A DNA stretch of 61,669 nt, counting the filler, from Stramenopiles sp. TOSAG23-6 (Eukaryota), in assembly GCA_900128565.1 (NCBI GenBank). It is 13 parts of 13 records of this genome, joined end to end, with 100 filler letters (N's around TTAATTAATTAA, not from the genome) between each part and the next. Parts side by side here need not be neighbours in the genome. Positions count along the whole stretch, not along the records: positions 52,288 to 56,931 come from LT637107.1; 12 more parts are not named here. One strand, given 5' to 3'. Positions 2,839-55,211 of the stretch are shown piece after piece (positions within the stretch are counted from its first letter, which is position 1; the number at the start of each line of letters is the position of its first letter). The translations under genes were made by a program, and so were the position numbers. The notes beneath the pieces were generated by a model, which saw only the letters and a program-made list of their open reading frames with translations, had not been told where the DNA came from and ran no database searches.

Positions 2839-2872
<34 letters not shown>

Positions 2873-3824: not shown

Positions 3825-4580
3825 ACGGATTTTCCCACTCGTCATTTCGTTTTTCTTGATCCGTTTCTTCTTCTCGGTATTTTTTGAAATATTTTGTTTT
3901 TGTTATACTAGCTCCATTAAATGCGCTTCCAGCCAAAGGATGTATTGTAAAAAATATTTTTTTGTAAAAAAATTATTTTTTGTTTAGGTACAAAATTTTC
4001 AAAAAAAAAAAAATTAAATTTGAAATTAATTGTGAAAACGTACATGCACCTGCTTACCTTCTGCTAAATGACGCCATTTTTGGTATACCCCTGGATGCAT
4101 TTCATGAAAGGGTGAGTTAACATCAATTTTATACCAAAAAATCTTTTCTCGGTGAGAATCATGTAATCAAAGGAAAATATTTCATTTGTTTTTTTGTTAG
4201 GTACAAAATTTACTACGAAAATAAAATTGAGTTTTTTTTTTTTTTTGAAACGGACATGAGTATTGTCCCAGCGGAAGTATAAATCACCACCACCACTATC
4301 TTTTGGTACCGTCCAATGATCTTTCAAAGGTGGAATCATATAATCAATTTTATCCGTCCACACTGCGTTGCCTTCTTCATCTTTTGCTTCTCCTTGAACA
4401 ACAATTTTTTTAGATGGCATATTTTTAGGTATAAAAAAAATGGTACGGCCGAGATAACCCTCGAAATACATTTTCACTTTTCCTTTGACTTGAGCTTGTG
4501 CCCAAAATAATTGTGTTTCCCATTCTACAAAGTTATTTTCTTCTACTGGAATAATTCTCTCGTAAATCATTCCTGGATTA
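3825..4580 (-). CDS. GOLD-domain-like protein, partial, multi-exon
   Basis: GGGDLYFRWDNTH|DSHREKIFWYKIDV resembles the GOLD C-terminal motif (xFDNxxS...K.V.Y). GT-AT introns at 4161-4255 and 3940-4043 keep the frame. Confidence 0.6.
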
Positions 4581-9411: not shown

Positions 9412-9577
9412 GTAAGATGCNNNNNNNNNNNNNNNNNNNNNNNNNNNNNNNNNNNNNNNNNNNNTTAATTAATTAANNNNNNNNNNNNNNNNNNNNNNNN
9501 NNNNNNNNNNNNNNNNNNNNATTTTGTACCTAACAAATTTTCAAAATTTTTTTTTGAAATATTTTTTCACAATACAT

Positions 9578-10482: not shown

Positions 10483-12081
10483 ATGTCAAACGTGCCTAAT
10501 ATTCTCAACTTTATAGGAGGTGAATTCACACCTCTTCTGTCTGGGAAAACATTTTTGCAAGTTACTGCTCCAGCTTCGGGTGATCACATTGCTAATGTGT
10601 GTGTTTCTAATGCTGATGACGTAAATATTGCTGTAGAAGCTGCGCAAAAATCACTTGAAGGTTGGAGGTCTCTTACAACTATGAAACGCGCCAAGATCAT
10701 GTACAAATTCCGCGAGCTTGTGGAACGCGATGCTGATGAAATTTCTCGTCTTATTGTTCTCGAAAATGGTAAAAATTTTGCGGAAGCTCGAGCTGAGGTA
10801 GCAAAAGGTAATGAAACAGTTGAGTGGGCTTGTGGAATGCCTTCGTTGCTAGCTGGTCGCAGAACCGAAGTTAGTCGTGGTGTTACATGTTACGATGTCC
10901 GCGATGCTCTTGGTGTTGTTGCATGTATTGTTCCCTTTAATTTCCCTTTTATGGTTCCTATGTGGACCGTTCCTATCGCTCTTACTGCCGGAAATTGCGT
11001 CATCTTAAAACCCAGTGAAAAAGTTCCTCTCACAATGAACAAAACTGCTGAGTTAATGAAAGAAGCAGGAATTCCCCCTGGAGTCTTTCAAATTGTACAT
11101 GGTACTCGAGATGCCGTTGAAGGTTTATGTGACGCACCAGGTGTCAAAGCTGTGACTTTTGTCGGTTCGTCTCTTGTCGCAAAATTAGTCTCCCAAAGAT
11201 GTTCAAAATTGAATAAAAGAGTGATGGCAATGGGTGGAGCAAAGAATCACCTTGTTGCTTTAGAAGATTGTGATGCAGAGGGCGCAGCAAGAGATATTGT
11301 TGCCTCATTTGCGGGTTGTGCAGGACAACGTTGCATGGCTGCGTCTGTGTTGCTCTTGGTCGGAGAATGCTCAAAGTTGTTGACAAATGTTGTGCAAAGA
11401 GCTCAGGCATTACAACTAGGACAAGAAAAAGGACAGGTTGGTCCAGTCATTGATGCTACCAGTAGAGCTCGTATTTTGAGCTATATTGAAGGAGCAATAT
11501 CTAGGGGAGCTAAAGTTCTCGTGGATGGGAGAAAAATGGCTCAAACAAATCCAGGAACTTGGGTTGGACCAACTATACTTTTACACCAAACTCATGACGA
11601 TGAAGCCGTTCGAAGTGAAATTTTTGGACCTGTTCTTTCTGTAGTTCGTGTAAAAACTTGGCAAGATGCCATAGACATTGAAAATTCTTCTCCCTATGGT
11701 AACGCTGCGTCTATATACACTTCCATCGGTGCTCATGCAGAATGGTTTTCTCCTCGATTTCGTGCAGGAATGATTGGAGTTAATATTGGCGTACCGGTAC
11801 CAAGGGAACCTTTTTCATTTGGAGGACATGCACTGTCAACCTCAAAATATGGTAGCTTTGATGTTACTGGTGATGGAGCGATGGAATTTTTCACGACTAG
11901 AAGAAAAGTTACTTCAAAATGGACAAAGATTGTGGGTACGTTTCCAACATTCAATTTCAAATTCTTTTTTGTGTCACATTTTGTACTTAACGATTTTTTT
12001 TTGTGGCATATTTTTCACAATACTTGGAGACCTGAGGAAGTAGATTCCACCGATCACGCAAACTTTGCAGGACAAATGTGA
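10483..12081 (+). CDS. ALDH6A1: Methylmalonate-semialdehyde dehydrogenase (acylating)
   Basis: PFNFPFMVPMW, KPSEKVP, FVGS, MGGAKNH, GCAGQRCMA, EIFGPVL, GVNIGVPVP. One intron starts at 11936 near the C-terminus. Confidence 0.95.
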   Translation: MSNVPNILNFIGGEFTPLLSGKTFLQVTAPASGDHIANVCVSNADDVNIAVEAAQKSLEGWRSLTTMKRAKIMYKFRELVERDADEISRLIVLENGKNFAEARAEVAKGNETVEWACGMPSLLAGRRTEVSRGVTCYDVRDALGVVACIVPFNFPFMVPMWTVPIALTAGNCVILKPSEKVPLTMNKTAELMKEAGIPPGVFQIVHGTRDAVEGLCDAPGVKAVTFVGSSLVAKLVSQRCSKLNKRVMAMGGAKNHLVALEDCDAEGAARDIVASFAGCAGQRCMAASVLLLVGECSKLLTNVVQRAQALQLGQEKGQVGPVIDATSRARILSYIEGAISRGAKVLVDGRKMAQTNPGTWVGPTILLHQTHDDEAVRSEIFGPVLSVVRVKTWQDAIDIENSSPYGNAASIYTSIGAHAEWFSPRFRAGMIGVNIGVPVPREPFSFGGHALSTSKYGSFDVTGDGAMEFFTTRRKVTSKWTKIVGTFPTFNFKFFFVSHFVLNDFFLWHIFHNTWRPEEVDSTDHANFAGQM

Positions 12082-14111: not shown

Positions 14112-14276
14112 GTATGTTTTATTTTTTTTTAACAAAAAAATCGAATTTATTTTTCGTACGAAATTTTGTACCTAACNNNNNNNNNNNNNNNNNNNNNNNN
14201 NNNNNNNNNNNNNNNNNNNNTTAATTAATTAANNNNNNNNNNNNNNNNNNNNNNNNNNNNNNNNNNNNNNNNNNNN

Positions 14277-16793
14277 TCTTACTTCTTATTATTTTACCAC
14301 GTTGATGGGCTTGTATATGCACTGCTGCTTTATGTTTCTTTTGTTTTTGAATTCTCCATTTTTCCCGTTTCCTTTTTTCATCATTTCTTTTTTTTTCTAA
14401 CTTGGCGTCACTCAATAATAAATTTGTTTTACATCTTGAAACTGAACCTCTTTGATGTTTCTGTATAACTATTGATGCTTTATCTCTCATTTTGTTTTGT
14501 AACAAAATTTCAGATTCCTTTGTTGCATTTGCTTGTAAAATACGTCGTATTTCTTTGGCTTTTATCTGACGTTGTTTACACTGTATTACTACTGATGCCT
14601 CATTCATTTTTTGTTTTTGTTGATTTAATAAGAGTTTCAAATCATTATTTCGTTTTTTTGTGATAAGAATACTTTTTGTATATCGGCTTTTAATGGCTTG
14701 TGGAGCTTCATTACTATTCCGTTTTTCCCAGGATAGTTTAACTGTATATCTTTTATTTTTCGTTTGTTTTGNTTTGTCATGTTCCTCTATAATATTGTCT
14801 ATTTCTTGTAATGTATATTTTTTCATTCCCATAGAATGTCCATGACAATTAGAAATATCAATGCTTCCAACAGCACATATTTTCATTGGTATTTTGGTTT
14901 GTAGACAAATTATTAAGTGAGTATCATTAGTAATTGGGTCATCATTGACACATAGCCAAAATACTTGTTCAATTGTTGATTCTTGACTAGTCTTATTATC
15001 ATTTATTATTTGTATATTTCGTGATTTTTGATGTCTATGTAGTGGTGTATTTTGGTGAATGTATTCTATGTCTTTAACAGGATTCAGTATAGTTTTGTTA
15101 TCTTTATGAAATGTAATATTTGGAATAGTACAAAACACATTACCTGAATTTTTCATTGAATTCTCATTATTTTGAGTATTATACATACTATTATCAATAC
15201 TACTACTTGTATTCATTGAATTTGTTGAAACAGTAGTAGCAGAAGTAGAGCCACTACTAGTATCACTACTACTAGTATCACTACTACTAGTATCACTACT
15301 ACTTGTATCACTACTACTTGTATCACTATTACTAGTATCAATACTAGGATTATCACCACTACTGCTTTTATCACTTGCTTTTAAAGTATTATCTTGACTA
15401 CTATTCTTTTTAGTAGTAACAAAATTTGTACTCTTTTCTTTAACAATATTTGTACTACAACTTTGTACGTGTATTCTTATCCAATTACCACCTGGTTTGA
15501 CACGTGTCGTTCTTCTAGATACCATCCCACGATACGCAGATGAAATTTGCGTTGATGATTTATGACTATGCTTTTTTCTTTCAATTTGTTGTGGTATACA
15601 TTGTGGATAAATATATCAAATTTGAAATGTATGAATACAAAAATAATAAAAATTATAAGTACAAAATTTAAAAAAAAATAGAATTCAGAAATGAAAATGT
15701 ACATGACGTCACTATGACGAAGTTGTCTCCCCCGTTCTATTCTTTGAATGAGGATGGTTGCTCTTAAAGTTTTCATTTCATGAACTATTTTTTTACGTAA
15801 TGAACGTCCACGATGTCTTGCTTGAATGTATGATGCAATTGTATGTGCGTCTTTTATGTAAGGGTGAAGAAAATATCAAATTCTATTTCTATTGTTAGAT
15901 ATTTAATTTAGTACGAAAAACAAAAACTCAAATTTGAATAATACATTTGAATTATACATTTGAATAATACATTTGAATTATACATTTGAACAATACATTT
16001 GGAATTTCTAATGAAAACATACATATGTTTTGGATGTCGCCAGGGACGCCATCTTCTTGTTGCATTTGTCCAGAGTCCAACTTGAATAAAATCATCTGTA
16101 CCTTTTTTCTTACCTAAAACTTCATCATCAAGTTGAACTTCGTTTTTCAAATCAAAAGCATTTTGAAATAATCCACCAACTTCATCAAAGTCATCGCCCC
16201 ATNTTTTGTGAACAAATATTTCAAACATTCAACTTTTTCTGTTAGGTATAAAATGTACNAAAAAAAAAGCNATACANTANGGTTAGGGTTGAAAACGTAC
16301 ATATTTCTCCAGCACCATACGCATCCATATTTTGTTCTATATTTTGATCACTTGATTCATTTTTTTTATAAATAGTATGGTTATCAAATGGATCAACTTC
16401 ACCACTTACATAACTCAAATCATCATCCGAATGAAATATAAAACTATTTTGTGAACTTTCCAAGACAGTACTATTTAATGAGTTTTTACTATATGCACTA
16501 TGAATTCTTTTATGTCTATGGCCTAATTGTTTTTGATGTTGCTGATAGTTTTCTGGACGATCATACGTCGAATGATTTGTTTTTCTGTTCCAATAATAAA
16601 AAGAACCTTCGTTGTATTCGTCAGCAATCTTTTCCCAGTCAGTTTTCAATTCCANTGGACGATTCAAATAACTTTTCTTACTTATTGGATTCCACCAAAC
16701 TTCATTTCCGTTTTCATCAAAATACAAAACAATCTCTTGATTTTGAGATATGTGAGGTGTAGAATTATGAATTATATCACTGGAACTAATCAT
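14277..16793 (-). CDS. WW-domain and multi-IQ-motif protein, 3'-truncated
   Basis: WEKIADEYNEGSFYYWNRKTNHSTYDRP; many IQ...RG motifs. GT-AT introns 16201-16300, 15856-16022 and 15596-15702 chain the exons in frame. Confidence 0.8.
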
Positions 16794-18301: not shown

Positions 18302-18931
18302 TTATGCATCAGTGTCCATCTTATTCTCATCGCCTTCTTGTACAGCAGATAAAAAATCAATTAATTTTTGACCTTTGACATATTCAAACGGTTTGTCTTT
18401 CCCAACTACTGCGATAGAAATGTTTTTAGCTGTTAAATCACCATTTTCGTGAACGCAACCTTTCAAAGAACGAATGGCATATATTGTAGGAAAATATTTC
18501 AGATGCAATTATTTTGTTAGGTATTTTTGTTGATGATTTTTTACACGAAAAAAAAAATATGTAAAACAATGAAATAATGAAAACATACATGTTTGACTAC
18601 TTCATCCACAGACATATTATCAAAGCCAGTCTTACCATCAAGATAAAATTTGTCAATATACGTTTTTGCAGATTGTGCTCGAGCGCCTATTGCCATGTAG
18701 AGTGAACATATATTTGAAATTTGAAAAATATGTTAGATATGAAAATAATAGTAAATTTGAAATTGAAAGATGAAAAATGAAAACATACATTGCCGAGTAT
18801 TCATAATAAGACCCAGAAGGTGATGTTTCATATAAATGTGCACCAGTACGATCGTAACCAGCGACTAGAAGTCCAACACCAAATGGTCGATTATTCCAGG
18901 TCGAGTATGCAATGCAGGCTGTCCGTCAGGG
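18302..18931 (-). CDS. PSMA1: 20S proteasome subunit alpha-6 (alpha type-1), 5'-truncated
   Basis: [62 protein letters not shown]; two introns. Confidence 0.9.
18479..18588 (-). other. Intron, GT-AT ends
   Basis: AAA CAT|GTATGT...TACCTAAC...CAATATAT|GCC gives VKHAIRSL. Confidence 0.85.
18695..18788 (-). other. Intron, GT-AT ends
   Basis: GCA AT|GTATGT...TATCTAAC...CTCTACAT|G GCA gives YSAMAIGAR; the nearest downstream AG is out of frame. Confidence 0.85.
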
Positions 18932-19087: not shown

Positions 19088-19650
19088 ATCGAATGATTGT
19101 ATTAATATTATATCTTTTATTATCATTTATCGAACCACCTGCTTGGTGTGCTTCAAGTATGTTTTATGTTTCTTGAATTTTGAGTGTAATTTTGTTTTCG
19201 TAGTAAATTTTGTACCTAACATATTTTTTAAAATTTTTTTTGAAATATTTTTCCAAAATACAATCTCACCCAGTGAAGATTCAGATAATTCAGTGGACAT
19301 TGATACAAAAATACCTGGATGTGACAAAGTACCTCGTTGGCCTATTCCACAATTGTCACCCAATGTTGCTCATATTTATGAAATACTTTGTCTTGTGTTT
19401 TTTACATGCGAACTTTTATTAAAAAAAACGTTTCAAGGTAGAGAATTATTTGTCCGGAATCGCTGGCATTTAGTTCAAATGTGTATTATTTCGTTTTCAT
19501 TTGGCTGTGTTTTGGCGTCAATACTCTTACCCTATTTACCCCATCGCCCAGCGTCGATTCTTCGTCCACTACTTTTTATTGCAATGAGTGAAAAAGTCAG
19601 GAACGAGGTGGCTACACTAGTCAGAGCATTACCCAAGTTTTTGGATGCAT
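19088..19650 (+). CDS. Two-pore channel (TPC)-like fragment (S1-S4)
   Basis: LSFIEPPAWC, IYEILCLVFF..ELLLK, ASILRPLLFI....VRNEVATLVRALPKFLD. Confidence 0.75.
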
Positions 19651-19793
19651 GTATGTTTTTTTTTTTTTTTGTATGAATTTTTTTTTTATAAAAATTTTGT
19701 ACCTAACAAAAATTTTTTTTTTTTGAAATATTTTTTTTCGTACGAAATTTTGTACCTAACATTTTTTTTTTGAAATATTTTTTTAAAATACGT

Positions 19794-22640
19794 GCTAGGC
19801 CGTTTTGCAACCGTTTGGCATCCAAGTGTTTGTGGTTTTGAACATACAAACCCTAACCCTAATAGTATTACAAATACAAAAAATACAAAAAATACAAAAA
19901 ATACAAAAAAAAATTCAGATAGTTTTGATGTTTTAACAATAGAACAAAAATATCGTAATACATTTTATCAGCATGCAACAGGTTTGTGCAAATTGTCATC
20001 GTTTGTGTTGTGTTGTATCGCAAAAAGAGATTGGCAGGTGATTATTGATTATTCGAAAATTGTGAGAGATTCGATTGGTGTATGTTACGTTTTTTTTTGA
20101 ATTTGAATTTGAATTTGAATTTGAATTGTTTTTTTCATACGAAATTTCATACCTAACAAAAAAACAAAAATTAAAATTTTTTTTTTTCGAATTTCGAATT
20201 ATTATTTTTTTTTCTTTACACTTTTAAACCTCTTCATACCTAACAAAAAAAAAAATTTTACAAAAAAAAAAAAATATTTTTCAACATACATGTAAAATGT
20301 GACGCATTGACCTTACAAAAAGTTGTACCTAGCTTAGATCTGTTAATTTCGTTAGTTGTTTGTGCTACAAAATTTCGTATTCAACAAAACGAAAAAAAAT
20401 TGAAGGAAGAAAATTCGTTAGGTACAAAATTTGCTACAAAAAAGAAATCTGACAAATTTAGCTGTAATGAAATGATTGAAAGAATAAACACTACAGAATT
20501 AGATTCTTTATCAATATTGTTGCTATCGTCTGTTTGTGGAAAAGTTAGATTTCGTGCAGTAGCTTTGATGAAGTATTGTTCAGAGTTAAATTTTCATCAT
20601 TGTAACCCTAACCCTAACCCTACAGATGCTATTAGGGTTAGGGTTCCAAAATCATTATATGACGTCATACAAATGGAAGGTGAGTTGTGGTCTTTAACAT
20701 CTGGAGCAACTTCGAATGAAGAAGAAGCAATTTTAAATTTATTTACTATGACGTCATTATATGAAGAGCATAAAGAGTATCGTCCGTACATGCAGAACCC
20801 TAACCCTAATGTACAAAAAACATATGAAAATAATTATACACACGAAAAACATGAAAAACATGAAAAACATGAAAGTAATAAAAGTATTTGGCAAAATGTT
20901 CTTCAATCTTCTGAAAGTAGTATAATAGCTCAAGATATTTGGAGTCGTATATTCTGTTTTATAATGTATGTTTTATTTATTTAAAAAAAAAAAATCGATT
21001 TTTTTTTTTTACAAAATTTTTGTACCTAACAAAAAAATTTAGATTTTTTTTTTTAAATATTTTTCCAAAATAAATGAGACGTGTTCGAATCACTCATTCA
21101 CGAGCAGTCGAAATGTATGTCTTTATTATTAACCCTAAAAAAACTAAAAAAAACTAAAAAAAACTAAAAAAATAAAAAAAAAAAGATTCCACAAAAAAAA
21201 ATAAAAAAAAAGCTAGATTTTTTTTTTTGTAGGAAATTTTGTACCTAACAAATTTTTGAGTTTTTTTCTTTTTCTACAAGAAAAAAAAAAAACACTAATC
21301 AATATATATATATATGTATATCTCCTAATATAACATGGCTCGTGGAACTGCGTTGCGTATATCAAATGTACTACGAAATTCACTAACAATGAAAAATGGA
21401 ACAAACCTGACATCAACATCTGAGGGACATCCTTTTTTATCTTTATACAATAGTGAATTTTTGTCCATTTATGATCAAAACCCCAACCCTAGTACTAATC
21501 CTGATATATTTTTGTTACACTCTTCAAAATCAAATCAAACTCAACATTCTTACAAACAAAAACAGGTTTGTATCGAAGCGCAATATTGGAGAAATTTATC
21601 AATCATCACAAATTCATATATTTCGTGTACTGAAGAGTCAAACACAAAAAATACGAAAAACACGAAAAATACGAAAAATCAAAATTTTAAAAAAAATTCA
21701 ATTTCTTTGCATACTTTACTTCAAGCTTTACATAGTCAATGTATATATATGAGAGATGTATGTTTTTTTTTTTTTTTTTTAAATTTAATTTTAATTTTTT
21801 TCGTACGAAATTTTGTACCTAAGAAATTTTTGAATTTTTTTTCAAATATTTTTTCACAATTTATACCCCCGCCATTGTATTTCGACATATGCATCCTAAT
21901 CAAGTACAAGAAGTACTAACAAAACTATTTTCATTTGAAAGTGAAGTAATTGCCTCTGTAAAACGGACAAACCTGTCATCTCGTACAGCGGCTGAAGCGG
22001 CATCAAAATCAAATGTATGTTTTTTTTACTATGATTTTTTTTTTTTTTTTTTTTCTAGTACTTCTACTCAATAAGGGTTAGGGTTAGTTTTTTTTTTTTT
22101 TTTTTTTTTCAACCACGAAATTTTTTTTTGTATGAACATTTCGTACCTAACAATATTTTTTTTTTTTTTTCAACTACGAAATTTTTTTTTTTTTTTTTTG
22201 GTTTCGTAGGAAATTTCGTACCTAACAATATATTTTAATTTTTTCTTCAAAATATTGTTCATCTTATATGTTGCTTCCGCTTGGTATGCAAATAATAAAA
22301 ATAAAAAACAAAACCGTAAAATTGTTAAAGAGCGACGTCGGCAAAGAGCACTACTAACGGCATTGACACGAATTTTTTCAAATATTGCAAAATTAGCTGC
22401 TGAGCCTCATTGGTCAAATTCGAACATTCAACAAAAAAGTACAGAATAACCCTAACCCTAACCCTAACCCTAATCACACGAAAAACACAGAAATGAAAAA
22501 TATTCCTATCAGTCATGACCAAACGATACGAAATCGATTTGTTGCATTCATCATTGCTGTTGATGAAGAGCTGATACTACATTTGCCAGTGTTTTATATT
22601 GATCAATGTAGCACAATGTGTGTTTTCATTATGAATTTCA

Positions 22641-22672
<32 letters not shown>

Positions 22673-23613
22673 TTTTTCCCAAAAAAAAAAAAAATTTTCA
22701 AAAAAAAAAAAAAAAAAAAAAAATTATCTAACATACAAAAAAAGATTTTTTAAATCATTCACATATTTTTCACCAAATTGTCTAGAACCGTATGACACGA
22801 AATCATTACAAATCTTACAATGCGAATTGTGTCGATGTATGTATGTTTTTTTTTTTCAAATTCGATTTTTTTTTTGTAGTAAATTTTGTACCTAACAAAA
22901 AAATTATAAAAAAAAAAAAATATTTTTCCAAAATACATACAAAATGTCTGTGATACTTGGGACGCTCCCTTTACATCTGAAGTTGCGGCTAAATTATGGT
23001 CCATTTTACACCAAAGATGGTCCAATTATTTACACGAAATCACAAAAAAAACAAAAAAAACGAAAATGGTACAAAATTTGTACCTAAATACATTTCAAAA
23101 ATCGTTTTTACTAGCAATGACATCACTGTTAAAGTGTCAAATTGATAAATCAAATGAAATTATTTTTGACTGGATTGATGAATTATTTTGGTGTAATACT
23201 TCATTTACACGAAATATGGCTAAAATTGCATTAACGCATATTTTATCAAGATCGGAAGTTTCAAGAGATTTTTGTTTACATCGTTGTTATTTTGCGTCAG
23301 GTAAGAATATTTGGTACGAACACTATTTTGGTGCTTTGTCTGAAATATGTCCAGTCTTACCAAAATTACCATCATTGATTGGAATTTTACACTTATGTAT
23401 TTGTATGGTGTTATTGTACATATTTAACTTAAAAAAAAATTTAACTTTTTTCAAAAAAAAAAAAAATTTAAATTTTTTTTTTTTTTTAATTTTTTAAAAA
23501 ATTGTACCTAACTTTATTTTTTTTGTACAATGACTATTTTTTGTACAATACATGTATGCTACAATACCGTCCTCATTATATTCGACAGAAAGCATTGCAT
23601 TTACTTGTCATAT
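19794..23613 (+). CDS. Furry/Tao3/MOR2-like scaffold protein, internal fragment, ~9 exons
   Basis: Helical-repeat sequence with RRRQRALLTALTRIF, LWSILHQRWS, IRQKALHLL. Family assignment is from memory of motifs; one apparent homopolymer frameshift near 22435. Confidence 0.5.
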
Positions 23614-46618: not shown

Positions 46619-46633
46619 TTTTACAAAATACAT

Positions 46634-47354
46634 GCCTAATCATTTCGATAGAAATTGGCCACGTTTAAAAACATCAAATATAAACATGACAATGAATAAT
46701 CCATCTGCAAAATCACAAAAAATACCACAAGTAAAAATATTAAGTACAAATGTAAGTACAAATAATTTGAATACAATTTTACGAGATGGAACAAATGAAA
46801 TTGTTCGTCGACATTCTAAATCTCCTGTTGTTGTGCCTGTTTCTGTTGCAGCTGCTGCAACTGCCGCAGCAACACGTGATTGTGATGTGAATATTCCAAC
46901 AATGAATGCAACTTCTCCAATCAGTATGTTTTATCATGAAATTTAAATGTATTATTCAATTCTAGTTTTGTTTTGTACCTATTTTTTTTATCATTTCAAA
47001 TCTTATCCTTATGAAATGTTTTAGTTTTGTACCTAACGAATTGTTTACAGCACATATATTCTTTTTAATACAGATGCACATGTTGTTACATGTATGTTTT
47101 AATTTTTTTTCAATTTTGAATTTATTTTTTTTTATAAAAATTTTGTACCTAACAAATTTTTATGATTTTTTTGAAAAATATTTTTCCAAAATATATCAGG
47201 TCGAGATTTGTTATTGAGAGGTCCTACATTATTTTCAGCACATTTAAAATATGGGGAATTTCGACCAACACCTGATGTTTTGTCTAAAGTTCTTTCCCTT
47301 GGCATTCCTCCTCGTATAGTATCGTCGTTGCCTATACAGACACATAATGTAGGT
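46634..47354 (+). CDS. Exons of an unidentified protein, including an 18-nt microexon (47074-47091)
   Basis: Frames chain across introns 46924-47073 and 47092-47196. Confidence 0.45.
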
Positions 47355-47661: not shown

Positions 47662-50600
47662 ATACAAAACATCAACCAAAATGGAGTAGAAAAAACTTTC
47701 ATAAAAGATGTATCAAATTGAGATCCATTGGAATAAAACATGGAAAATATAAACTGACAAAACCCTGAAGTAACTGCAGAAATTATCCAAAATATATTAG
47801 ACCAAGGAGGACCAGATAAGATACTTTTTACACGATACAGTAAAGTCATTGATAATACAATTAATAAGTTTGATAGACACCACAATGCAACTGATCTTGC
47901 CTGTCTCACAATAATCTGTCCTTCAACACTTGATCCTTTCAATTCTTCTATAAATGAAATTTCACTCAATGATGTTCCCCATGTATTGTTGAAAAAATAT
48001 ATTTTTTTTTTGTCAGTAAAAATAAAAAACATCGTAAAGTACAAAATTTCCACACGAAACATAATAATGAAATGAATGATGAAAACGTACATAAAATGTG
48101 TTTGAGTACATCTTTACTAGCCTCTGGTGATAGTTCAAGTAAAGCCCAAATAAATATCACTACAGTTGAGGCTGCAATGGGAATACAACGAATTAATAGA
48201 ATGAATAAAATACGAGATCTTTTTATCACAATTTCATCATTTACAAATCTTTTCTGTGGAACTCTCAGTCGACTCATAGCCTGAGCCTCAACTGGTGTAA
48301 ATAAAATAGGAAATAATAAAAGAGGTATTTGGAAACAACACAACCAAAAGCAACACATTGGAGTTAACACAATAGGTATATCAAATAGTTGACCTATGAG
48401 TATTGTTAGACCACAACAGACTTGGGAAAAAAATCCAAACAGAATACTCTGCCGGCAATTATATATTGTGAAAAAATATTTGTATAACCCTAACCCTAAT
48501 AACAATTCATTAAGTACGGAATTTCATACAAAACAAAATTTAGGTAGAACAATCAATTTTGAAAACATACATGTAACATGCGTCTTCCCTCTTTAATCAA
48601 CCGAACAATAACTGATATCGATTGTAAACTGTCAACTCTTAATTCACAACCTAAGGAACAGATTGTATTATTTAATCTTAATTCGCGTCTTGAAGGTAAA
48701 GTTGAACCTACATTCACTTTATCAGGATCATCATACACTGCAATTGACAGATCTGCACAACGTAAAACTGATGCATTTGATGCATACATTGAACTTCCAA
48801 GGGCTCCGACAACTTCACCATTTTGTTGCATAATATTTATCATTTGTTTTACTCGTGATGGTGTACTATCCGTAAATAAAGAGACGAGCAATGGAACATT
48901 ATCTACATTTTCTAAATGTTCACGAATGGCAGGTATCCCATGAGGTAGTCTAGCCCTTGCATGTATTGTGAAAATTTTTTTTTTTAGGAAAACACAAAAT
49001 ATTCGTTAGGTACAAAATTTACTATAAAAAAAATAAATTTAAAATTAATTGTCAAAACGTTCATCCCAACGATCTGTACCTAATCTTTTGCTCGCTTCAT
49101 TATCTTTTTCACTCAGTGAAATTGCAGTGTTCCAACCAGTATCTAAACCCATTTTTGCGGCGAATGGTTTCGCTTGACGGAAACTTTTTTCAGAGAAAAC
49201 AACAAAACGGATTCCTGCTGTTGTGACATCATCAATAACTTTGTGCAAACCTGTCTTCGGTTGCAGACGGCACGCAATCCTGTTTTGTGGAGAAATTAAA
49301 AACAAAAGTTAGGTAACATTTTTGGTACAAAACAAAATACATTTGAAATCAATAATAATACATTAAATAGATTAGAAAAGATTATCAAATATTGATCTAC
49401 AAAAAAAAAAATTAAATGTTTTTCGTTAGGTACAAAATTTCATACAAAAAAAAATCAATAATAATAACGTACATACCTAAGAAAATGAAGCCATCTGACA
49501 TCATATCTCTCACAGCTTTTTGTGCTTTTGAAAAGGTTTGTCCCACATTATTTGAAAGTTTTGGCGTTGTAAATACATCTGAAGTATTCACAGGAGATTT
49601 CGATGTTTTTACACGTAATCTTTTTGTATTTATGTCTTTTGTTTTTTTATGTTTTATATTTTGATCAGAAAGTGTGAAATTTCTATTGGATGACAATTTT
49701 TCTGATGTATTCAAAACTTTTTCATCTTGAGTTTTTTTTTGATCTTCATTTATACTTTTATTTTCTTCATTTTTAGTTTGTTGAGTATCACTAGCTTCCA
49801 ATATATTCGTCATATTACTCATTCTTATATGACTTTGCATATTTCCATTTTGAGATAATTTTAAAAAATGTTTCCGATCAGGAGCAGGAACGGGTAAAAA
49901 TCCAAATGCCACTGCGTCAAGATCCTCTTGCTCCCAGCGCATACACATTGCTTGAAGACCTCTTCGGCAGGCATCTCCGAGGGGACAGATACACTCCCCA
50001 TCCCAATAATGGATTGTACAAAAATATTCTACAATTAGGTTTGGGTTAGGGTTGTACAAAAATATTCTAAAAATGTATTACATTTATAAATAAGAATTTG
50101 AAATTCATGATGGAAACAATACATTTGAAATTCATGATGGAAACATACATGAGCACAGTTTGCTAATAAAGTTTTTGGAGACCCAGCACTCATTAACTTC
50201 AATAAACCAACATTTCTACAATCTTCTGTGACTTTTAATGTCAGCTGTGGAACACAAAGCTTCAACAAACCTCCATCAGAAGAATCTAAAACAGAAATAG
50301 ATTCAAATAAATCATTTCTTGTTGTAGACATTGTTTGCTCTGAATTTCGTGTTTTAGACGTTTTCTGAAACGTTTCATGAGTTTTATCATCTGATCCCAT
50401 CAACTGGAATTCTTGTAAAACACGAAAACAAGAAACATCAGATCCGACAAATCCCATATACTGTGAAAACAATGTAGTAAAAAATTCGTTAGGTAAAATA
50501 TTTTCATAGAAAAAAAATGTAGGTAAAAAATTAAATTTTGAAAACTTATATTTCTCGTGCTAAACTTGCCATGGCAAGGCGTATTGGAGGAGAAATACTG

Positions 50601-52132
50601 TCAATCACTAAATCAGTCAAATATTTTGTCTTTGATGGGACAACATTTGCATGTAACATCAAACCCATTCCTAAAGGCTTCAAGGAAGACAAATGTATTT
50701 TGGAAAAATATTTCAAAAAAAAAATGTTAGGCACAAAATTTTTATAAAAAAAAAAATCCAATTTGAAAAAAAATAAAACATACATGTCTATGCCATTGAA
50801 TTGATTCAAACTTTACTTTATTTTTACTTTCAGGATCAGGATGTAAATCTAAAATAGTATGTACTTTTAGGAAAATATTTAAAAAAAAATGTTAGGTACA
50901 AAATTTCGTACGAAAAAAAACATATGAGTTTTTTTTTTATAACGTACATGAGTGCCTTCATCACCATTTCCTGTATAACTCTCCTCTTTGATACAGACTT
51001 CTTCTACTAGTGGAGTTCGTTCTCGTACAGCTTCCGAATCAATACAGCATAATACTGTGATGCTTCCAAGTTTATCAATGAGACCAAGAGGATATGTATT
51101 TTGGAAAAATATTTCAAAAAAAAAACTAGAATTTGTTAGGTACAAAATGTTTATAAAAAAATAAATTCAAAATTGAAAAAAAATATAACATACATGGATC
51201 AGCATCAGGTGGAAGAGACGCTAAAGTCAATCGATTCCATTTCTTAGTGAGACCAAAACTCATGTATAATGAAAAAATATTTAAAAAAAAAAATGTTAGG
51301 TACAAAATTTTTATAAAAAAAAAATGTAGACAAAAAATTGAAATGAAAAAATATTTAAAAAAAAAAATGTTAGATACAAAATTTTTATAAAAAAAAAATG
51401 TAGACAAAAAAATGAAATGAAAACGTACATCAATACATGCCTTAACATTAACGATATAATAACCATACAGCGTTTAGGTTTACTCATATTATCATCCAAT
51501 ACATTCTCCGTACCATTAGGGTTAGGGTTATTATCAGACAATGATCGAGATAGTGATGGCAAGGCTCCTGAGTGTGTCAAAATGTTTGAAGTAGCTACGG
51601 AATCTAAAGTTAACAACATTGGAGGACTTAATAATGAGCACATGCATATATTGTGAAAAAAAAAATTGTATAAAATTCGTTAGGTACAAAATTTGGTACA
51701 AAAAAAAAATTGTATAAAATTCGTTAGGTACAAAATTTGGTACAAAAAAAAATTTGAAATTGATAAAATGTACATATACTCACAGATAATGGCTTTATAA
51801 TAAAAAGTCTGACGGCATTTTCAGATGTTTTATCATCTGATCGTCTTACCCAATGGAGTATGAAAAATATTTCAAAAAATGAAAATCGTTAGGTATAAAA
51901 TTTTTTGAAAAAAAAAAATAAATTCGAAATTGAAATGAAAACGTACATGAAGTATTGATAATAGTAAACTACATATTGTACTTATTATTAATAAATATCG
52001 TGCATTTCGTTGAGCTTCCTTCAAGCGCGACCGAAAAGCTGTTGGTCTATAACTAGTATTTGGTTTTAATGCAGCATCTAATAAATTTAATAAAAACGTT
52101 TCCTGCATTACAAACTGATCATACGGTGCCAC
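47662..52132 (-). CDS. TMEM94: TMEM94 (KIAA0195) P-type-ATPase-like protein, internal part, 13 exons
   Basis: LGSITVLCCID, WHRHLSSLKPLG, YWDGECICPL, GIRFVVFS..KPFAAKMGLDTGWNTAISL, ARLPHGIPAIREHLENVDNVPLLVSLFTD. 12 complete introns: 47981-48090, 48461-48570, 48961-49062, 49280-49472, 50009-50148, 50456-50549, 50693-50783, 50859-50947, 51094-51193, 51262-51428, 51646-51773, 51853-51946. Confidence 0.92.
48961..49062 (-). other. Intron, probable GA-AT ends
   Basis: TGG GAT|GAACGTTTT...TGTACCTAAC...CACAATACAT|GCA AGG GCT AGA. Confidence 0.6.
50456..50549 (-). other. Intron, probable AT-AT ends
   Basis: GAA AT|ATAAGTTTT...TACCTAAC...CAGTATAT|G GGA TTT gives LAREMGF. Confidence 0.65.
50693..50783 (-). 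other. Intron, GT-AT ends
   Basis: AGA CAT|GTATGT...TGCCTAAC...CCAAAATACAT|TTG TCT gives the conserved WHRHLSSLKPLG. Confidence 0.88.
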
Positions 52133-52341
52133 ATGTATTTTGGAAAAATATTTCAAAAAAAATCGTTAGGTACAAAATTTCGTACGANNNNNNNNNNNNN
52201 NNNNNNNNNNNNNNNNNNNNNNNNNNNNNNNTTAATTAATTAANNNNNNNNNNNNNNNNNNNNNNNNNNNNNNNNNNNNNNNNNNNNTTTGTACCTAACA
52301 AATTTTAGTTTTTTTTTTTGAAATATTTTTCCAAAATACAT

Positions 52342-53185
52342 TCGCTTTATTGAAACATTAAAACAGTTACAAGAAGATTTCCCAAGACCAATTTTGATGG
52401 AAAATGCAAAGAGTTTATTTGATAAAATCGGTTTAAATTTGTCCCTTCAATATAAGTTGGAACCTGAAGGAGTTCTGGAAAGACAATTATCATTAGCCAA
52501 TGTATGTTTTTATTTTTTTTTTAACAAAAAAAATCGAATTTTTTTTCGTACGAAATTTTGTACCTAACAAATTTAAGGTTTTTTTTTTTTCAAATATTTT
52601 TCCAAAATACATAGATGTTCTACGTCGACTTTGGCTTTGAAAAGACACTGTTCTTCCCTATCTTTGCTAGTGGAATCTGCTATTAGAGACGAATCCTATA
52701 GTGTAAAAGATAAATGTCATACTGTCTTATCGTGTATGTTTCTTTTTTCACTTTTTTTTCAGTTTCGAATTCATGTTTTTTTTTATAAAAATTTCGTACC
52801 TAACAAATTTTACAAAAAAAAAATATTTTTTCATAATACATGTTTATATCCTTTTGTAGTAGAGCCACCAGATTTTGAACCTAATATTTCATCAAAATAT
52901 TGTAATGACGATAAAAAAGAATATGTATCATTTGAAAATTTTTGTGTTTTTGACGACGATTACGAGATTCAAAAATCTAGGATGATTGATGATAAAAAAA
53001 ACAATAATTATGCACATGAAAAATCTAGGATGATTGTTGTAGTTATTGGTGGTGTGTCTTATTCAGAAGTTAGAGAAATGAAGCGTTTAAGCAAGTATAT
53101 GAACAAACAAATAATTTTATTAACCACTGGGATATTGACACCCCTCCAACATTTACAAAGATTTGGAGGAATCTCAAAATTTTAA
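52342..53185 (+). CDS. Sec1/Munc18 family protein, C-terminal exons
   Basis: RMIVVVIGGVSYSEVREMKRLS....QIILLTTGILTP; introns 52502-52612 and 52734-52841. Confidence 0.85.
52502..52612 (+). mobile_element. Representative near-consensus copy of the Introner-like GT-AT intron family
   Basis: AT|GTATGTTTTT...AATCGAATTTTTTTTCGTACGAAATTTTGTACCTAACAAATT...AAATATTTTTCCAAAATAC AT|; matches copies in unrelated genes (e.g. 14112-14176, 29293-29400, 38040-38099, 51094-51193). Mobility is inferred. Confidence 0.6.
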
Positions 53186-53279: not shown

Positions 53280-55211
53280 TTAAGATTTTGAAACTTTTCT
53301 TTTTTTTTTACTCCCTTTCTTACCTATTTTAGGGTTATGGCTTGAATTTGCTGTACGTTGTAAAAATGCTGCAGCCTGTGCAGCATTTTTCTTTTTTTTT
53401 CTTAGTTTTCGTTTCTGTTTTTTCGTTAGGGTTGGGGTGATATCCTTGGTTTCGATCAATTCATCATTTGTCTTTTCTATTGTTTTCTTTGTATTATTTT
53501 CAAAAATATCTTGTGTGTTTTTTGTGTTTTGGTTTTGCTGTATTTCAAAATCATCATGCAAATCATTTTCTGTCTGTTTCCTGTTTACAAAAGAGGAACT
53601 AAATAAATAATTGCTATCAGAAGAGTCAGAGTGATCAAAATCATCAGAATGATGAGAATCAGAATGACCAACCTTCAAATTAGGGTTATTATTTGATGTA
53701 ATTGGAATTGGAGGTGGCATTGTATCACTTGAGATGAGACCTTTCTGTTGAGTGATGTTTACATTCATACTATGATTATTCAAGATAGGAGTTGGGGATT
53801 GTACAATATCATTATCATCATCCATCGGATTACAATCATCATCATCATCATCTTGACAGTCTAACTCTATCATTTTGTCTACAATATCTAAAGAAGAAAT
53901 AGAGTCTGTACGAAATTTTGTACCTAATGATTTTCGAATTTGACGCTGTTTCCTTTTTTTCTCTTTTGCTTTGCTCCTTTTCTTCTTTTTTGTATTATTA
54001 CTAGGGTTTGTTATCATACTTTTTAGGGTTTGGGTTTCATTCCCATCTGTATGGGATTGCATTGAACGATGAAATAATTTTTCTGTTTTTTCTAGTAATT
54101 CTTTCGGTTTAAAATTTGATACAATATTATTTTTTTTTTCTTCTTCTTCTCTGACTAACATTTTAGCATATGCTTTCTTATGCTTTTTTGACTGTTTATG
54201 TCCAATCAAAGCCGCTTCTGATTTAAACTTTTTCTTACACGCCTTACAATCCCAAGTGATCTCTTCTTCATCATTATCTAGATAAACAATACGTCCCTTC
54301 TTTCCTTTTCCTTTACCTTTACCTTTTCCAGCGTTGTTCCCTTCTCGTTGATGAATTTCTGGTACCAAATTTGGATTGAATTCCGTACCTAAGACATCGC
54401 ACTGATCCTCATTTGCATCTAACCAAGCTTCACGATAATCTAAACGTGCCTTTGCTTTATCTTTATTAAAATTAAAAGCACGTTTCAATTCTTCGAGTTC
54501 TTTTGCAGCTCGCTGATTGCGTCTTTCTGCAACACGAGGGTCTTTACGGTGTGCATGATTTGCCAAACGTCGAATCGTTTCAATCCATTTTTTTTTGGCT
54601 GCTTTTCGAGCCATAAAATTCTCTTTTTCAATAGCTCTTCTTACGCGACGATCAGGAAAGTCCCCAGGTTTATACTTGTCACACCATGCAAAAGATCTCT
54701 TGGACAAGAAAGAACGAAAAAAACTATAAAATGAAGAAACTTCTTTCCACTTAGTGTCTGCTGTACCAAAAGAAGGAATCTCAGTAGAGTCATCTTTCTC
54801 TAACGCTGAAACAGTTTCAAAAGCTCCACGAAAGACTCTATAAAAACCACATTCATCAGAACCAAAACCAGAGAATGCACACGGACTGAAGAGGTGAAGA
54901 ATTTCAGTACCCATACCATCATCACCTGTTGCTGTCGTAGAATCCCCTTCAGCTTTTGTACCATCACCACCACGAAGAATTACTTCACGATGAGAGTCAT
55001 ACCAAGCACGTTCCTGATCATCACTCAGAACTTCATACGCATGTTGAATACATTTAAAGCGTTCTGCAGCCTCCTCCTCGCGGTGCAGATTTTTATCTGG
55101 ATGCCATTGTAAAGCACGCTTTCTGTACGCTTTCTTTATTTCATTTGACGTGGCTTCTCGATCAACTCCTAATTCCTCATAAAAGCAAGTCAAAGACTTT
55201 AATGTAGCCAT
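53280..55211 (-). CDS. DNAJC21: DnaJ + C2H2 zinc-finger co-chaperone (Jjj1/DNAJC21), intronless
   Basis: J-domain with [45 protein letters not shown]...HKQSKKH. Confidence 0.93.

What the first reader, a model, noticed from the sequence alone, without database searches (positions are those of the whole stretch)
52500..52612. The introns form one repeat family with AT target-site duplication and inverted termini (Introner/MITE-like)
Seen: most copies read AT[GTAT....ATAC]AT, so the exon-terminal AT is repeated at the intron end and the inner ends are reverse complements (often CATGTAT...ATACATG). Copies in unrelated genes share long internal blocks and cluster at ~90-110 nt. Many contig ends (e.g. 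1, 9521, 14176, 19032, 28438, 38040, 42689, 52187, 52288) fall inside this repeat, as expected for a high-copy family. Established: Introners in Micromonas and Aureococcus are non-autonomous DNA transposons whose TSD/TIR supply splice sites. Inference: an element inserting at AT donates the GT from its terminus and uses the duplicated AT as acceptor, giving precise removal. This would explain why the acceptor is AT. No transposase is present in this window.
Basis: partly seen in the sequence, partly recalled or inferred. Interest (0 to 1): 0.9.

Follow-up and report, generated by a model that had tools for sequence, protein, structure and literature searches.

The report
Repeat-family introns ending in AT
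In these contigs of a marine stramenopile nearly every intron is a copy of one ~100-base repeat that is cut out from GT to AT instead of the usual GT to AG, which points to a mobile intron family and an altered splicing rule, though no RNA data were available to confirm it.

Summary
The feature is real. The window is a chain of ~4.65-kb draft contigs from an AT-rich marine stramenopile. The name of a near-identical public gene model suggests the MAST-3 group. I curated 38 complete introns, median 108 nt, and found 12 more cut by contig ends.

All share one layout: (C)AT|GTAYGTTTT, a core TCGTACGAAATTTTGTACCTAAC, a T-run, then TTC(C/A)A(A/C)AATA(C/T)AT|. Similarity extends beyond these signal motifs. 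In seawater metagenomes the repeat bins are up to about 5,000 times deeper than exon-only bins.

Removing GT…AT restores reading frames. In one gene, removing 12 introns gives an ORF of about 1,018 aa, and 11 of 12 junctions lie in gap-free blocks against a relative's protein. The last two bases are AT in 32 of 38 introns, AG in 4, TT in 1 and AA in 1. Three informative cases favour the GT…AT register over AT…AC.

The exon-end dinucleotide repeats the intron-end dinucleotide in 31 of 38 introns, including one AA/AA and one AG/AG pair (permutation P about 0.004). This is suggestive of a 2-bp target-site duplication.

The inverted termini are only 3-4 nt, and CATGTAT…ATACATG occurs in 0 of 37 (the 38th was not checked). 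I found no full-length copy outside genes or in antisense, no transposase, no empty site and no RNA evidence.

Verdict: an Introner-like family with a non-canonical AT acceptor. The transposon mechanism is plausible but unproven.

The parts
52500..52501 (+). Exon-terminal AT, the first copy of the direct repeat
52502..52612 (+). The intron/element of the finding. 111 nt, AT|GT..AT|A, phase 0, in a Sec1-family gene.
   Evidence: Frame test
52502..52510 (+). 5' splice motif GTATGTTTT
   Evidence: Position profile
52546..52568 (+). Conserved core TCGTACGAAATTTTGTACCTAAC, including the branch-point-like box
52590..52612 (+). 3' block CAAATATTTTTCCAAAATACAT, ending in the AT acceptor
52734..52841 (+). 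Intron, 108 nt, GT|GT..AT|G, same gene
2775..2884 (-). Intron, 110 nt, AT|GT..AT|G
3029..3193 (-). Intron, 165 nt, AT|GT..AG|G, in a kinesin-8-like motor. The junction reads TVM|IANVSP.
3345..3504 (-). Intron, 160 nt, AG|GT..AG|A (AG/AG direct repeat), in the kinesin-8-like motor
   Evidence: The flanking exons map to consecutive residues of solved kinesin chains, with exactly one residue left for the split codon.
3940..4043 (-). Intron, 104 nt, AT|GT..AT|C
4161..4255 (-). Intron, 95 nt, AT|GT..AT|G, with 5' GTCCGT
11936..12025 (+). Intron, 90 nt, GG|GT..TT|G, in the methylmalonate-semialdehyde dehydrogenase gene
   Evidence: The relative's C-terminus KIVGRP... fits this register only.
15596..15702 (-). 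Intron, 107 nt, AT|GT..AT|A
15826..16022 (-). Intron, 197 nt, AT|GT..AT|T, with an internal 13-nt tandem repeat
16201..16300 (-). Intron, 100 nt, AT|GT..AT|G
18479..18588 (-). Intron, 110 nt, AT|GT..AT|G
18695..18788 (-). Intron, 94 nt, AT|GT..AT|G
19157..19263 (+). Intron, 107 nt, AA|GT..AA|T (AA/AA direct repeat), in a two-pore-channel-like gene
19651..19789 (+). Intron, 139 nt, AT|GT..AT|A. The consensus ACAT is mutated to ACGT, and an AT 4 nt upstream fits the frame.
   Evidence: Frame. D-x-x-V-L spacing holds in 6 of the 7 homologue alignments that reach the junction.
20080..20291 (+). Intron, 212 nt, GT|GT..AT|G, with a doubled core
20966..21075 (+). Intron, 110 nt, AT|GT..AT|G
21758..21864 (+). 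Intron, 107 nt, AT|GT..AT|A
22841..22938 (+). Intron, 98 nt, AT|GT..AT|A
24747..24855 (-). Intron, 109 nt, AT|GT..AG|A
24977..25079 (-). Intron, 103 nt, AT|GT..AT|A
29293..29400 (-). Intron, 108 nt, AT|GT..AT|G, young subfamily
30129..30238 (-). Intron, 110 nt, AT|GT..AT|G
31942..32063 (+). Intron, 122 nt, AA|GT..AT|G
38208..38375 (-). Intron, 168 nt, AT|GT..AT|C, with an internal module duplicated
47092..47196 (+). Intron, 105 nt, AT|GT..AT|C, young subfamily
47981..48090 (-). TMEM94-like gene, intron 12. 110 nt, AT|GT..AT|G.
48461..48570 (-). TMEM94-like gene, intron 11. 110 nt, AT|GT..AT|A.
48961..49062 (-). TMEM94-like gene, intron 10. 102 nt, AT|GA..AT|G.
49280..49472 (-). TMEM94-like gene, intron 9. 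193 nt, AT|GT..AG|G.
   Evidence: The relative's LGMIA matches this junction.
50009..50148 (-). TMEM94-like gene, intron 8. 140 nt, AT|GT..AT|T.
50456..50549 (-). TMEM94-like gene, intron 7. 94 nt, AT|AT..AT|G.
50693..50783 (-). TMEM94-like gene, intron 6. 91 nt, AT|GT..AT|T, young subfamily.
50859..50947 (-). TMEM94-like gene, intron 5. 89 nt, AT|GT..AT|A.
51094..51193 (-). TMEM94-like gene, intron 4. 100 nt, AT|GT..AT|A, young subfamily.
51262..51428 (-). TMEM94-like gene, intron 3. 167 nt, AT|GT..AT|G, with a doubled core.
51646..51773 (-). TMEM94-like gene, intron 2. 128 nt, AT|GT..AT|G, with a doubled core.
51853..51946 (-). TMEM94-like gene, intron 1. 94 nt, AT|GT..AT|T. This is the only junction next to an alignment gap.
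12..74 (-). 5' part of a copy that runs off the window start
9521..9577 (+). 3' part of a copy at a contig end
10089..10150 (+). 3' part of a copy after an N gap
14112..14176 (+). 5' part of a copy at a contig end
19032..19087 (+). 3' part of a copy at a contig end
23786..23842 (-). Part of a copy cut by a contig end
28385..28438 (-). 3' part of a copy at a contig end
38040..38099 (-). 5' part of a copy at a contig end
42634..42689 (-). 3' part of a copy at a contig end, upstream of a kinesin exon (STLQFADRAK)
42798..42884 (+). 3' part of a copy near a contig end
52133..52187 (-). 3' part of a copy at a contig end; the first exon of the TMEM94-like stretch follows it
52289..52341 (+). 3' part of a copy at a contig end, in the Sec1-family gene
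53906..53935 (+). About 30 nt of the core, antisense inside the DnaJ/zinc-finger ORF on the minus strand
20342..20452 (-). Two core pieces in antisense orientation inside an open exon of the plus-strand channel gene
43127..43168 (+). Core piece in a stretch closed in all three plus-strand frames

Best explanation
These are spliceosomal-type introns of one high-copy, Introner-like family in an AT-rich marine stramenopile, apparently of the MAST-3 group.

Each copy carries:
- its own 5' splice site, GTA(C/T)GTTTT;
- a yeast-like branch box, TGTACCTAAC, usually 30-55 nt from the 3' end;
- a T-run;
- a conserved 3' block ending in (C/T)AT.

Shown, indirectly: the unit removed runs from the G of GT to the T of AT, and its removal restores the coding sequence exactly.

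Inferred:
- Removal happens at the RNA level, by a U2-type spliceosome.
- In this lineage that spliceosome accepts U instead of G as the last intron base. AG still works, in 4 of 38 introns.
- The family spread as a mobile element that inserts at AT and duplicates it. The element brings the GT and the branch site, and the second AT copy becomes the acceptor.

Of these steps, the mobilisation mechanism is the least secure.
For: Family:
- The copies are collinear and similar over their whole length in unrelated genes, with subfamilies and internal module duplications.
- 235 of 666 pairs exceed the maximum of the reversed control after the signal motifs are removed.
- In seawater metagenome X3 the repeat bins reach a summed depth of 41,259, against about 5-9 for exon-only bins. 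3,216 of 8,243 laid contigs fit two places.
- 10 of 24 contig ends lie in the repeat.

Precise removal:
- 30 of 38 intron lengths are not multiples of 3, yet every one joins open frames.
- Removing 12 introns from one gene gives a single ORF of about 1,018 aa.
- 11 of those 12 junctions lie in gap-free conserved blocks against relative P0121.
- The kinesin exons flanking intron 3504-3345 map to 7z2b_K residues 216-261 and 263-301. That leaves exactly one residue for the split codon. The same holds in 5gsz_A, 7z2a_K and 7rs5_K.

Register GT...AT:
- The AG variants sit at the same aligned position as AT.
- For the MMSDH intron, only the GT..TT register gives KIVGRP, as in relative P0244.
- In intron 19651 the consensus ACAT is mutated to ACGT. 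Only an AT 4 nt upstream fits the frame and the D-x-x-V-L spacing of the homologues.
- GT and AT are better conserved (36/38 and 32/38) than the AT and AC of the shifted register (32/38; 22/37).

Duplication:
- The exon-end and intron-end dinucleotides match in 31 of 38 introns, against 27.1 expected (P=0.0036).
- Two of the matches are non-AT, AA/AA and AG/AG (P=0.006).
- The match is confined to offsets -1 and -2.
- It holds in 9 of 9 young copies.

DNA-level dispersal: pieces of the core occur in antisense inside ORFs and in non-coding DNA.

The resemblance of the 5' splice site and branch box to the yeast consensus is recalled, not computed.
Against: - There is no RNA evidence. No RNA holder was usable, and the cDNA contigs lay inside exons only.
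- The terminal inverted match is 3-4 nt, and the folds are no more stable than shuffles (z from -2.2 to +0.7 in 8 introns).
- None of the 38 complete copies is antisense or lies outside coding sequence, although about 17% of the unique sequence lies outside long ORFs.
- Pfam found no transposase domain in the 10 ORFs scanned, out of 57 listed.
- No empty site was seen. Metagenome contigs that cross three exon-intron borders all carry the intron.
- The locus-specific duplication rests on two loci. The AG/AG one could simply be an old canonical intron.
- The exonic AT is also kept in old, diverged copies (14 of 16 GTAC-type introns, my count). This fits a splice signal as well as it fits a duplication.
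- The draft contigs may be chimeric or collapsed inside the repeat. Intron 3824-3647 joins conflicting frames.
Confidence: 0.65

Rival explanations
1. There is no DNA transposon. The shared motifs are this lineage's extended splice signals: CAT|GTAYGTTTT, TGTACCTAAC and CACAATACAT|G. New copies arise through RNA, by reverse splicing of excised introns into transcripts followed by reverse transcription and recombination, or by another intron-duplication process. The exonic AT is then a 5' exon signal, not a target-site duplication.
For: - All 38 complete copies are sense-oriented within coding sequence; none is intergenic.
- Old, diverged introns keep the same three motifs and the exonic AT.
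- The inverted termini are only 3-4 nt.
- No transposase domain was found.
Against: - Copies in unrelated genes share near-identical blocks of 40-100 nt outside the signal motifs.
- The locus-specific AA/AA and AG/AG repeats are not predicted by reverse splicing.
- Core fragments occur in antisense inside ORFs and in non-coding DNA.
Confidence: 0.25
2. The true boundaries are shifted by two bases: AT...AC introns ([ATGTAYG...ATAC]), either U12-type or U2-type AT-AC.
For: When the flanking AT is duplicated, both registers give the same mRNA. That is the case in 29 of 38 introns (the 31 matches less the AA and AG pairs). A-C is a known compatible pair of first and last intron bases (PMC13326754, section 30, read).
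Against: - The MMSDH junction fits G, not W.
- Intron 19651 in the AT..AC register would be 143 nt, which is out of frame.
- The junction of intron 49472 gives M, as in the relative, only in the GT..AG register.
- AC at that position occurs in only 22 of 37 introns.
- The 5' motif is not the U12 consensus, and the branch box lies 30-55 nt from the 3' end (the U12 consensus is recalled).
Confidence: 0.03
3. The stretches are removed from DNA rather than RNA, like ciliate internal eliminated sequences bounded by TA. That would leave 6 extra bases in the product.
For: TA...TA lies just inside the termini, and the +6 product also stays in frame (my reading).
Against: - 11 of 12 junctions align to the relative with no two-residue insertion.
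- The kinesin exons are contiguous in solved chains.
- Environmental DNA contigs carry the introns.
- The organism uses the standard genetic code and groups with stramenopiles.
Confidence: 0.02

Closest known systems
Introners of Micromonas pusilla, Aureococcus anophagefferens and the many families surveyed by Gozashti et al. 2022 and 2025 (PMC9860276 and PMC12130899; passages read)
   Same: - Many sequence-similar short introns lie in unrelated genes.
- The elements are non-autonomous.
- They are AT-rich relative to the exons.
- One splice site is carried by the element, and the other can be taken from the duplicated target.
- The family is strongly genic.
   Different: - Described families use GY-AG. 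The 2025 survey accepted only AG or AC acceptors and discarded unfamiliar ones that lacked RNA support.
- Here the acceptor is AT in 32 of 38 introns.
- The putative duplication is 2 bp, against the 3-9 bp reported.
- The inverted termini are only 3-4 nt.
- The family makes up essentially all introns seen here, not a subset.
Non-canonical introner elements of Amoebophrya (PMC7789003; passages read)
   Same: - The host is a marine protist.
- Most introns break the GT-AG rule.
- The repeated introns have a direct repeat overlapping the exon/intron border and complementary ends.
- No transposase accounts for them.
   Different: - Amoebophrya introns show no consensus terminal dinucleotide, direct repeats of 3-5 nt and inverted repeats of 8-20 nt that form hairpins, and U1 was not found.
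- Here one clear GT...AT consensus holds, with canonical-looking 5' and branch motifs, a 2-nt repeat and no stable fold.
Non-canonical introns of the tunicate Fritillaria borealis (PMC13326754; abstract, introduction and one discussion section read)
   Same: The GT/AG rule is abandoned genome-wide while a U2-type spliceosome is kept. A link to introner transposons with weak splice sites is discussed.
   Different: - Fritillaria has many different termini, mostly with a non-GT 5' end, and duplicated U2AF subunits.
- Here the 5' GT is kept and only the last base changes, G to T.
- The spliceosome genes of this organism could not be examined.
U12-type and U2-type AT-AC introns
   Same: They are a non-GT-AG class with long conserved motifs.
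   Different: The register, the 5' motif and the branch-to-3' distance do not fit (see the membership test).

Membership tests
Introner (intron-generating repeat family) | Many introns at unrelated positions share sequence well beyond the splice signals | tested here: met
   235 of 666 pairs score above the control maximum after the signals are stripped, and the alignment is collinear. Metagenome depth is up to about 5,000 times that of exon-only bins.
Introner (intron-generating repeat family) | The copies are removed precisely from the transcript | tested here: inconclusive
   Precise removal is needed to restore the ORFs and to match the relatives. No RNA reads were available.
Introner (intron-generating repeat family) | Recent gain: positions absent in orthologues or polymorphic in populations | not testable with these tools
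   No gene structures of relatives are held. The metagenome contigs that cross three borders carry the intron. Two duplicate contigs are identical at their introns.
MITE / non-autonomous TIR DNA transposon | Terminal inverted repeats of about 10 bp or more | tested here: not met
   GTA..TAC occurs in 18 of 37 introns, GTAT..ATAC in 9 of 37 and the 7-nt palindrome in 0 of 37. GTAC-type 5' ends show no covariation with the 3' end.
MITE / non-autonomous TIR DNA transposon | Target-site duplication that is locus-specific | tested here: inconclusive
   The 2-nt repeat occurs in 31 of 38 introns (P=0.0036). The non-AT matches are AA/AA and AG/AG (P=0.006). No other offset shows a match. Only two loci are informative.
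MITE / non-autonomous TIR DNA transposon | Copies in both orientations and outside genes | tested here: not met
   None of the 38 complete copies is antisense or outside coding sequence. Only three short core fragments are.
MITE / non-autonomous TIR DNA transposon | An autonomous partner with the same termini | not testable with these tools
   No whole genome is held. Pfam found no transposase domain in the 10 ORFs scanned.
U12-type intron | 5' /RTATCCTT and a TCCTTAAC branch site 10-26 nt from the 3' end (consensus recalled) | tested here: not met
   The 5' motif is GTAYGTTTT and the branch box lies mostly 30-55 nt from the end. Rfam found no snRNA in the window.
Amoebophrya-type introner element | Inverted repeat of 8-20 nt joining the intron ends, with a direct repeat of 3-5 nt | tested here: not met
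   The terminal match is 3-4 nt, the direct repeat is 2 nt, and the folds are not better than shuffles.
Ciliate-type eliminated sequence (IES) | Absent from somatic DNA; TA-bounded excision | tested here: not met
   The +6-nt product is excluded at 11 of 12 junctions and in the kinesin gene. Environmental DNA holds the introns.

The most novel reading that the evidence does not exclude
A free-living marine stramenopile lineage has replaced the GT-AG rule with GT-AT across its genome. An Introner that duplicates a 2-bp AT target overran the intron complement, and the duplicated AT became the acceptor. The spliceosome now pairs the first G of the intron with a terminal U instead of a terminal G, while the few remaining AG introns are still spliced.
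Probability: 0.45. Interest if true: 0.9.

Novelty: new variant of a known kind. Interest (0 to 1): 0.8.

Why it matters
- The terminal AG of introns is one of the most constant signals in eukaryotes. A lineage in which about five in six introns end in AT, with the 5' GT and the branch box intact, would be a clean natural experiment. It isolates the 3' splice-site step of spliceosome evolution more simply than the heterogeneous cases of Fritillaria or Amoebophrya.
- It would also show an intron-generating element imposing its own acceptor on a genome. That bears on how bursts of intron gain happen.
- There is a practical consequence. The public gene models that match this assembly force canonical sites and are wrong at these introns. 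Proteomes of such uncultured plankton, and introner surveys that accept only AG or AC acceptors, will therefore miss or distort this kind of genome.

Tried and rejected
- **Whole genome:** none is held.
- **Earlier findings:** nothing by place or by sequence.
- **RNA:** no RNA holder was listed. One run labelled cDNA (X8, share 0.07) gave only two contigs inside exons plus repeat fragments, and no junction.
- **First read-laying request:** I then laid one contig.
- **Presence/absence alleles:** none appeared among the joints shown; 603 further joints were not shown.
- **Metagenome contigs:** the 22-mer core gave 0 matches. The 16-mer gave 118 single chance matches, and my profile found no real family copy among those loci.
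- **Viral contigs:** 28 chance matches and no family copy.
- **Rfam:** only a tRNA, no snRNA.
- **RNA folds of 8 introns:** not more stable than shuffles.
- **Pfam on 10 long ORFs:** no transposase domain.
- **Registers AT..AC and TA..TA:** rejected.
I dropped the typed list and derived the weights from stored seed introns instead.
- **Introns left out of the counts** because their boundaries stayed unresolved or their frames conflicted:
  - 3824-3647
  - 24603-24513
  - about 21113-21330
  - about 22100-22269
  - about 23500-23552
  - about 29937-29738
  - about 46924-47059
  - about 46560-46640
  - about 27492-27340
  - about 1880-1744
  - 9735-10150, which spans an N gap
- **Also left out:** the 12 copies cut by contig ends and the 5 duplicates on contig 57032-61669.
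- **Papers:**
  - 'GT-AT' with introns, non-canonical and branch point: 4 irrelevant papers.
  - 'GU-AU' with intron and spliceosome: 2 irrelevant papers.
  - 'GT-AT' with introner: 0 papers.
  - Introner with stramenopile and MAST: nothing relevant.
  - Three MAST genome papers do not discuss introns; 'intron' occurs 2, 0 and 0 times.
  - Supplements were not seen, and species tables there could list this lineage.
Full report
**What the window is.**
- The 61,669 bases are 13 draft contigs of about 4.65 kb each, sorted by length. They are joined by N44-TTAATTAATTAA-N44 linkers.
- GC content is 24-40%.
- Long ORFs read in the standard genetic code.
- Contig 57032-61669 repeats contig 14277-18931 almost exactly.
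- An intron-less eIF5 ORF is 100% identical, apart from two deletions, to a public model whose source name contains 'MAST32'. The next-best hit is 59% identical, and further hits are brown algae, diatoms and other stramenopiles. I therefore treat the organism as a marine stramenopile, apparently of the MAST-3 group.
- No whole genome is held for it.

**The observation.**
- At 52500-52612 the sequence is ccaAT|GTATGTTTTT...TCGTACGAAATTTTGTACCTAAC...CAAATATTTTTCCAAAATACAT|aga.
- The box TACCTAAC occurs 52 times in the window. Nearly every hit lies in the same layout.
- A profile built from 10 seed introns finds 72 stretches.
- I curated 38 complete, non-duplicate introns. Their boundaries were set by alignment to the consensus together with continuity of the flanking open frames.
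- Twelve further copies are cut by contig ends. About eleven candidates were left out because their ends or frames stayed unresolved; they are listed under Tried and rejected.
- Median length is 108 nt. Introns are 82% A+T.

**Is it a repeat family or only shared signals?**
- I cut off the first 9 nt and last 12 nt and masked the 8-nt branch box. 235 of 666 pairs still score above the best pair of a control with one partner reversed. 35 of 37 introns have a partner above the best shuffled pair.
- The alignment of 12 copies from unrelated genes is collinear over the whole length. It shows subfamily blocks and internal duplications of the core module.
- In three seawater or marine metagenomes the bins that hold the element reach summed contig depths of 41,259 (X3), 12,970 (X5) and 2,467 (X7). 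Exon-only bins mostly reach single figures. This means thousands of pieces at least 90% alike.
- Ten of 24 contig ends fall in the repeat, which covers 11% of the unique bases.
- The family is real. An older, diverged layer has 5' GTACGTTTTC or GTACATTTTC and 3' TTCACAATACAT|G. A young layer has 5' GTATGTTTTA and 3' TTTCCAAAATACAT.

**What is removed.**
- Thirty of 38 lengths are not multiples of three, yet every curated intron joins two open frames.
- In the TMEM94-like P-type-ATPase-like gene on 52132-47661 (minus strand), taking out 12 introns gives one ORF of about 1,018 aa.
- Against the 1,412-aa protein of a relative (P0121), 11 of 12 junctions lie in gap-free, often identical blocks. 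Examples are DADP|YPLGLIDKLGSIT, IQWHRH|LSSLKPLG, MASLARE|MGFVG and TDRWD|ARARLPHG. One junction sits beside a 4-residue gap in a variable stretch.
- The two exons around kinesin intron 3504-3345 map to residues 216-261 and 263-301 of one solved kinesin-8 chain. That leaves exactly the split codon between them. Three other chains show the same.
- A TA-to-TA excision would leave two extra residues. It is therefore excluded at these junctions.

**Which register.** Where the flanking AT is duplicated, GT..AT and AT..AC give the same mRNA. Four lines favour GT..AT:
1. Four introns have AG at exactly the aligned place of AT: 3193-3029, 3504-3345, 24855-24747 and 49472-49280. For 49472 only the GT..AG register gives the M seen in the relative.
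2. The intron in the methylmalonate-semialdehyde dehydrogenase gene (11936-12025, GG|GT..TT|G) gives ...KIVGRPEEVDSTDHANFAGQM. The relative has ...KIVGRPVEEDKTDHANFAGQM, and the shifted registers give W.
3. In intron 19651 the usual ACAT has become ACGT. The consensus position is then out of frame, but an AT four bases upstream fits the frame. It also gives LDAYVL, with the D-x-x-V-L spacing seen in 6 of the 7 homologue alignments that reach that point.
4. GT (36/38) and the terminal AT (32/38) are better conserved than the AC two bases inside (22/37).

The intron consensus is therefore (C)AT|GTAYGTTTT...TGTACCTAAC...(30-55 nt)...A(C/T)AT|. The last two bases are AT in 32 introns, AG in 4, TT in 1 and AA in 1.

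**Duplication and termini.**
- The two exon bases before GT equal the last two intron bases in 31 of 38 introns, against 27.1 expected from shuffled pairings (P=0.0036).
- The two matching non-AT cases are AA..AA at 19157 and AG..AG at 3504, where 0.1-0.2 such matches are expected (P=0.006).
- Seven introns do not match: 3193, 11936, 20080, 24855, 31942, 49472 and 52734.
- No other offset from -8 to +8 shows a within-locus match.
- All 9 young copies show the repeat.
The AG/AG one could be an old canonical intron.
- The inverted termini are weak. GTA..TAC occurs in 18 of 37 introns, GTAT..ATAC in 9 of 37 and CATGTAT..ATACATG in none.
- The ends pair in five of eight minimum-energy folds, but no fold beats its shuffles convincingly.

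**Points against a plain MITE.**
- All 38 complete copies are in the sense orientation inside coding sequence.
- None lies in the roughly 17% of unique sequence outside long ORFs and family hits.
- Pfam found no transposase domain in the 10 long ORFs scanned, out of 57 listed.
- On the other side, short pieces of the core lie in antisense inside two ORFs (53906-53935 and 20342-20452) and in non-coding DNA (43127-43168). Splice signals alone cannot explain those.
- The exonic AT is kept in old copies too, so it probably now serves as part of the 5' splice signal, whatever its origin.

**What could not be done.**
- No RNA run holds the locus. One run labelled cDNA gave only within-exon contigs.
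- Environmental DNA contigs cross three exon-intron borders and all carry the intron. No empty site appeared among the joints shown.
- Pattern scans of the metagenome and viral collections gave only chance matches.
- Rfam found no snRNA in the window.

**Comparison with what is known.**
- Introners are described as repeat families of introns, many with 3-9-bp target duplications and/or inverted repeats. One splice site may be recruited from the duplication (PMC9860276, passages).
- The 2025 survey accepted GT, GC, GA or AT donors and AG or AC acceptors. It discarded families with unfamiliar sites that lacked RNA support (PMC12130899, passage). A GT-AT family in a poorly annotated genome would not have been reported there.
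- Amoebophrya has non-canonical introner elements with longer direct and inverted repeats and no consensus termini (PMC7789003, passages).
- Fewer than 10% of Fritillaria borealis introns are GT/AG, and it has diverged U2AF paralogues (PMC13326754; abstract, introduction and one discussion section).
- I found no paper describing a majority of GT-AT introns, or introners in MAST stramenopiles (searches; three MAST genome papers checked).

**Verdict.**
- The family, the precise excision unit and the AT acceptor are well supported by sequence, frames and homology.
- RNA-level splicing by an adapted U2-type spliceosome is the natural inference but is not shown.
- Spread by insertion at AT with a 2-bp duplication is plausible. 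An RNA-mediated route remains a serious rival.
- This is a new variant of a known kind, and it is worth following up with RNA data and the full genome.

Noticed in passing
48461-48570, 47981-48090, 11936-12025, 36530-37891: Public gene models that match this assembly (source names GSMAST32.ASY1.ANO1.*) mis-handle these loci. One keeps 13 residues of intron 48570-48461 and runs into intron 48090-47981. One deletes GRPEE around the MMSDH intron. One has two deletions in the intron-less eIF5 ORF.
   Followed up: partly
53906-53935; 20342-20452; 43127-43168: Pieces of the intron core, 25-45 nt long, lie outside introns. Two are antisense and in frame inside ORFs, where they read ..SLGTKFRT.. and ..NSLGTKFATKK... 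One is in non-coding DNA.
   Followed up: partly
14 unique sites, e.g. 20606-20617, 22450-22473, 26114-26131, 29592-29603, 48488-48499, 51516-51527: Short telomere-like runs, (CCCTAA/TTAGGG) repeated 2-4 times, are scattered through the contigs. NPNPN motifs recur in the ORF translations, so some runs may lie in frame in exons, which I did not check site by site; 48488-48499 lies inside an intron.
   Followed up: no
3647-3824: This intron-like stretch joins an exon of a p24/GOLD-like gene to a kinesin-motor exon in conflicting frames. It is probably a chimeric assembly join inside the repeat.
   Followed up: partly
14277-18931 and 57032-61669: The two contigs are almost identical. They differ only by a few indels and substitutions in 18002-18138 and by N calls, and they carry the same introns.
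   Followed up: yes
15935-15987 and 27415-27467: A 13-nt unit, AAATGTAT(T/A)ATTC, repeated in tandem four times, sits inside two introns of different genes.
   Followed up: no
19651-19789, 51262-51428, 51646-51773, 38208-38375, 20080-20291, 3345-3504: Several longer introns hold two tandem copies of the core/branch-box module.
   Followed up: partly
33290-37939: This whole contig, which holds a RING-finger ORF and the eIF5 gene, has no copy of the family.
   Followed up: no
55642-55714 (-): A tRNA gene, the only Rfam match in the window.
   Followed up: no
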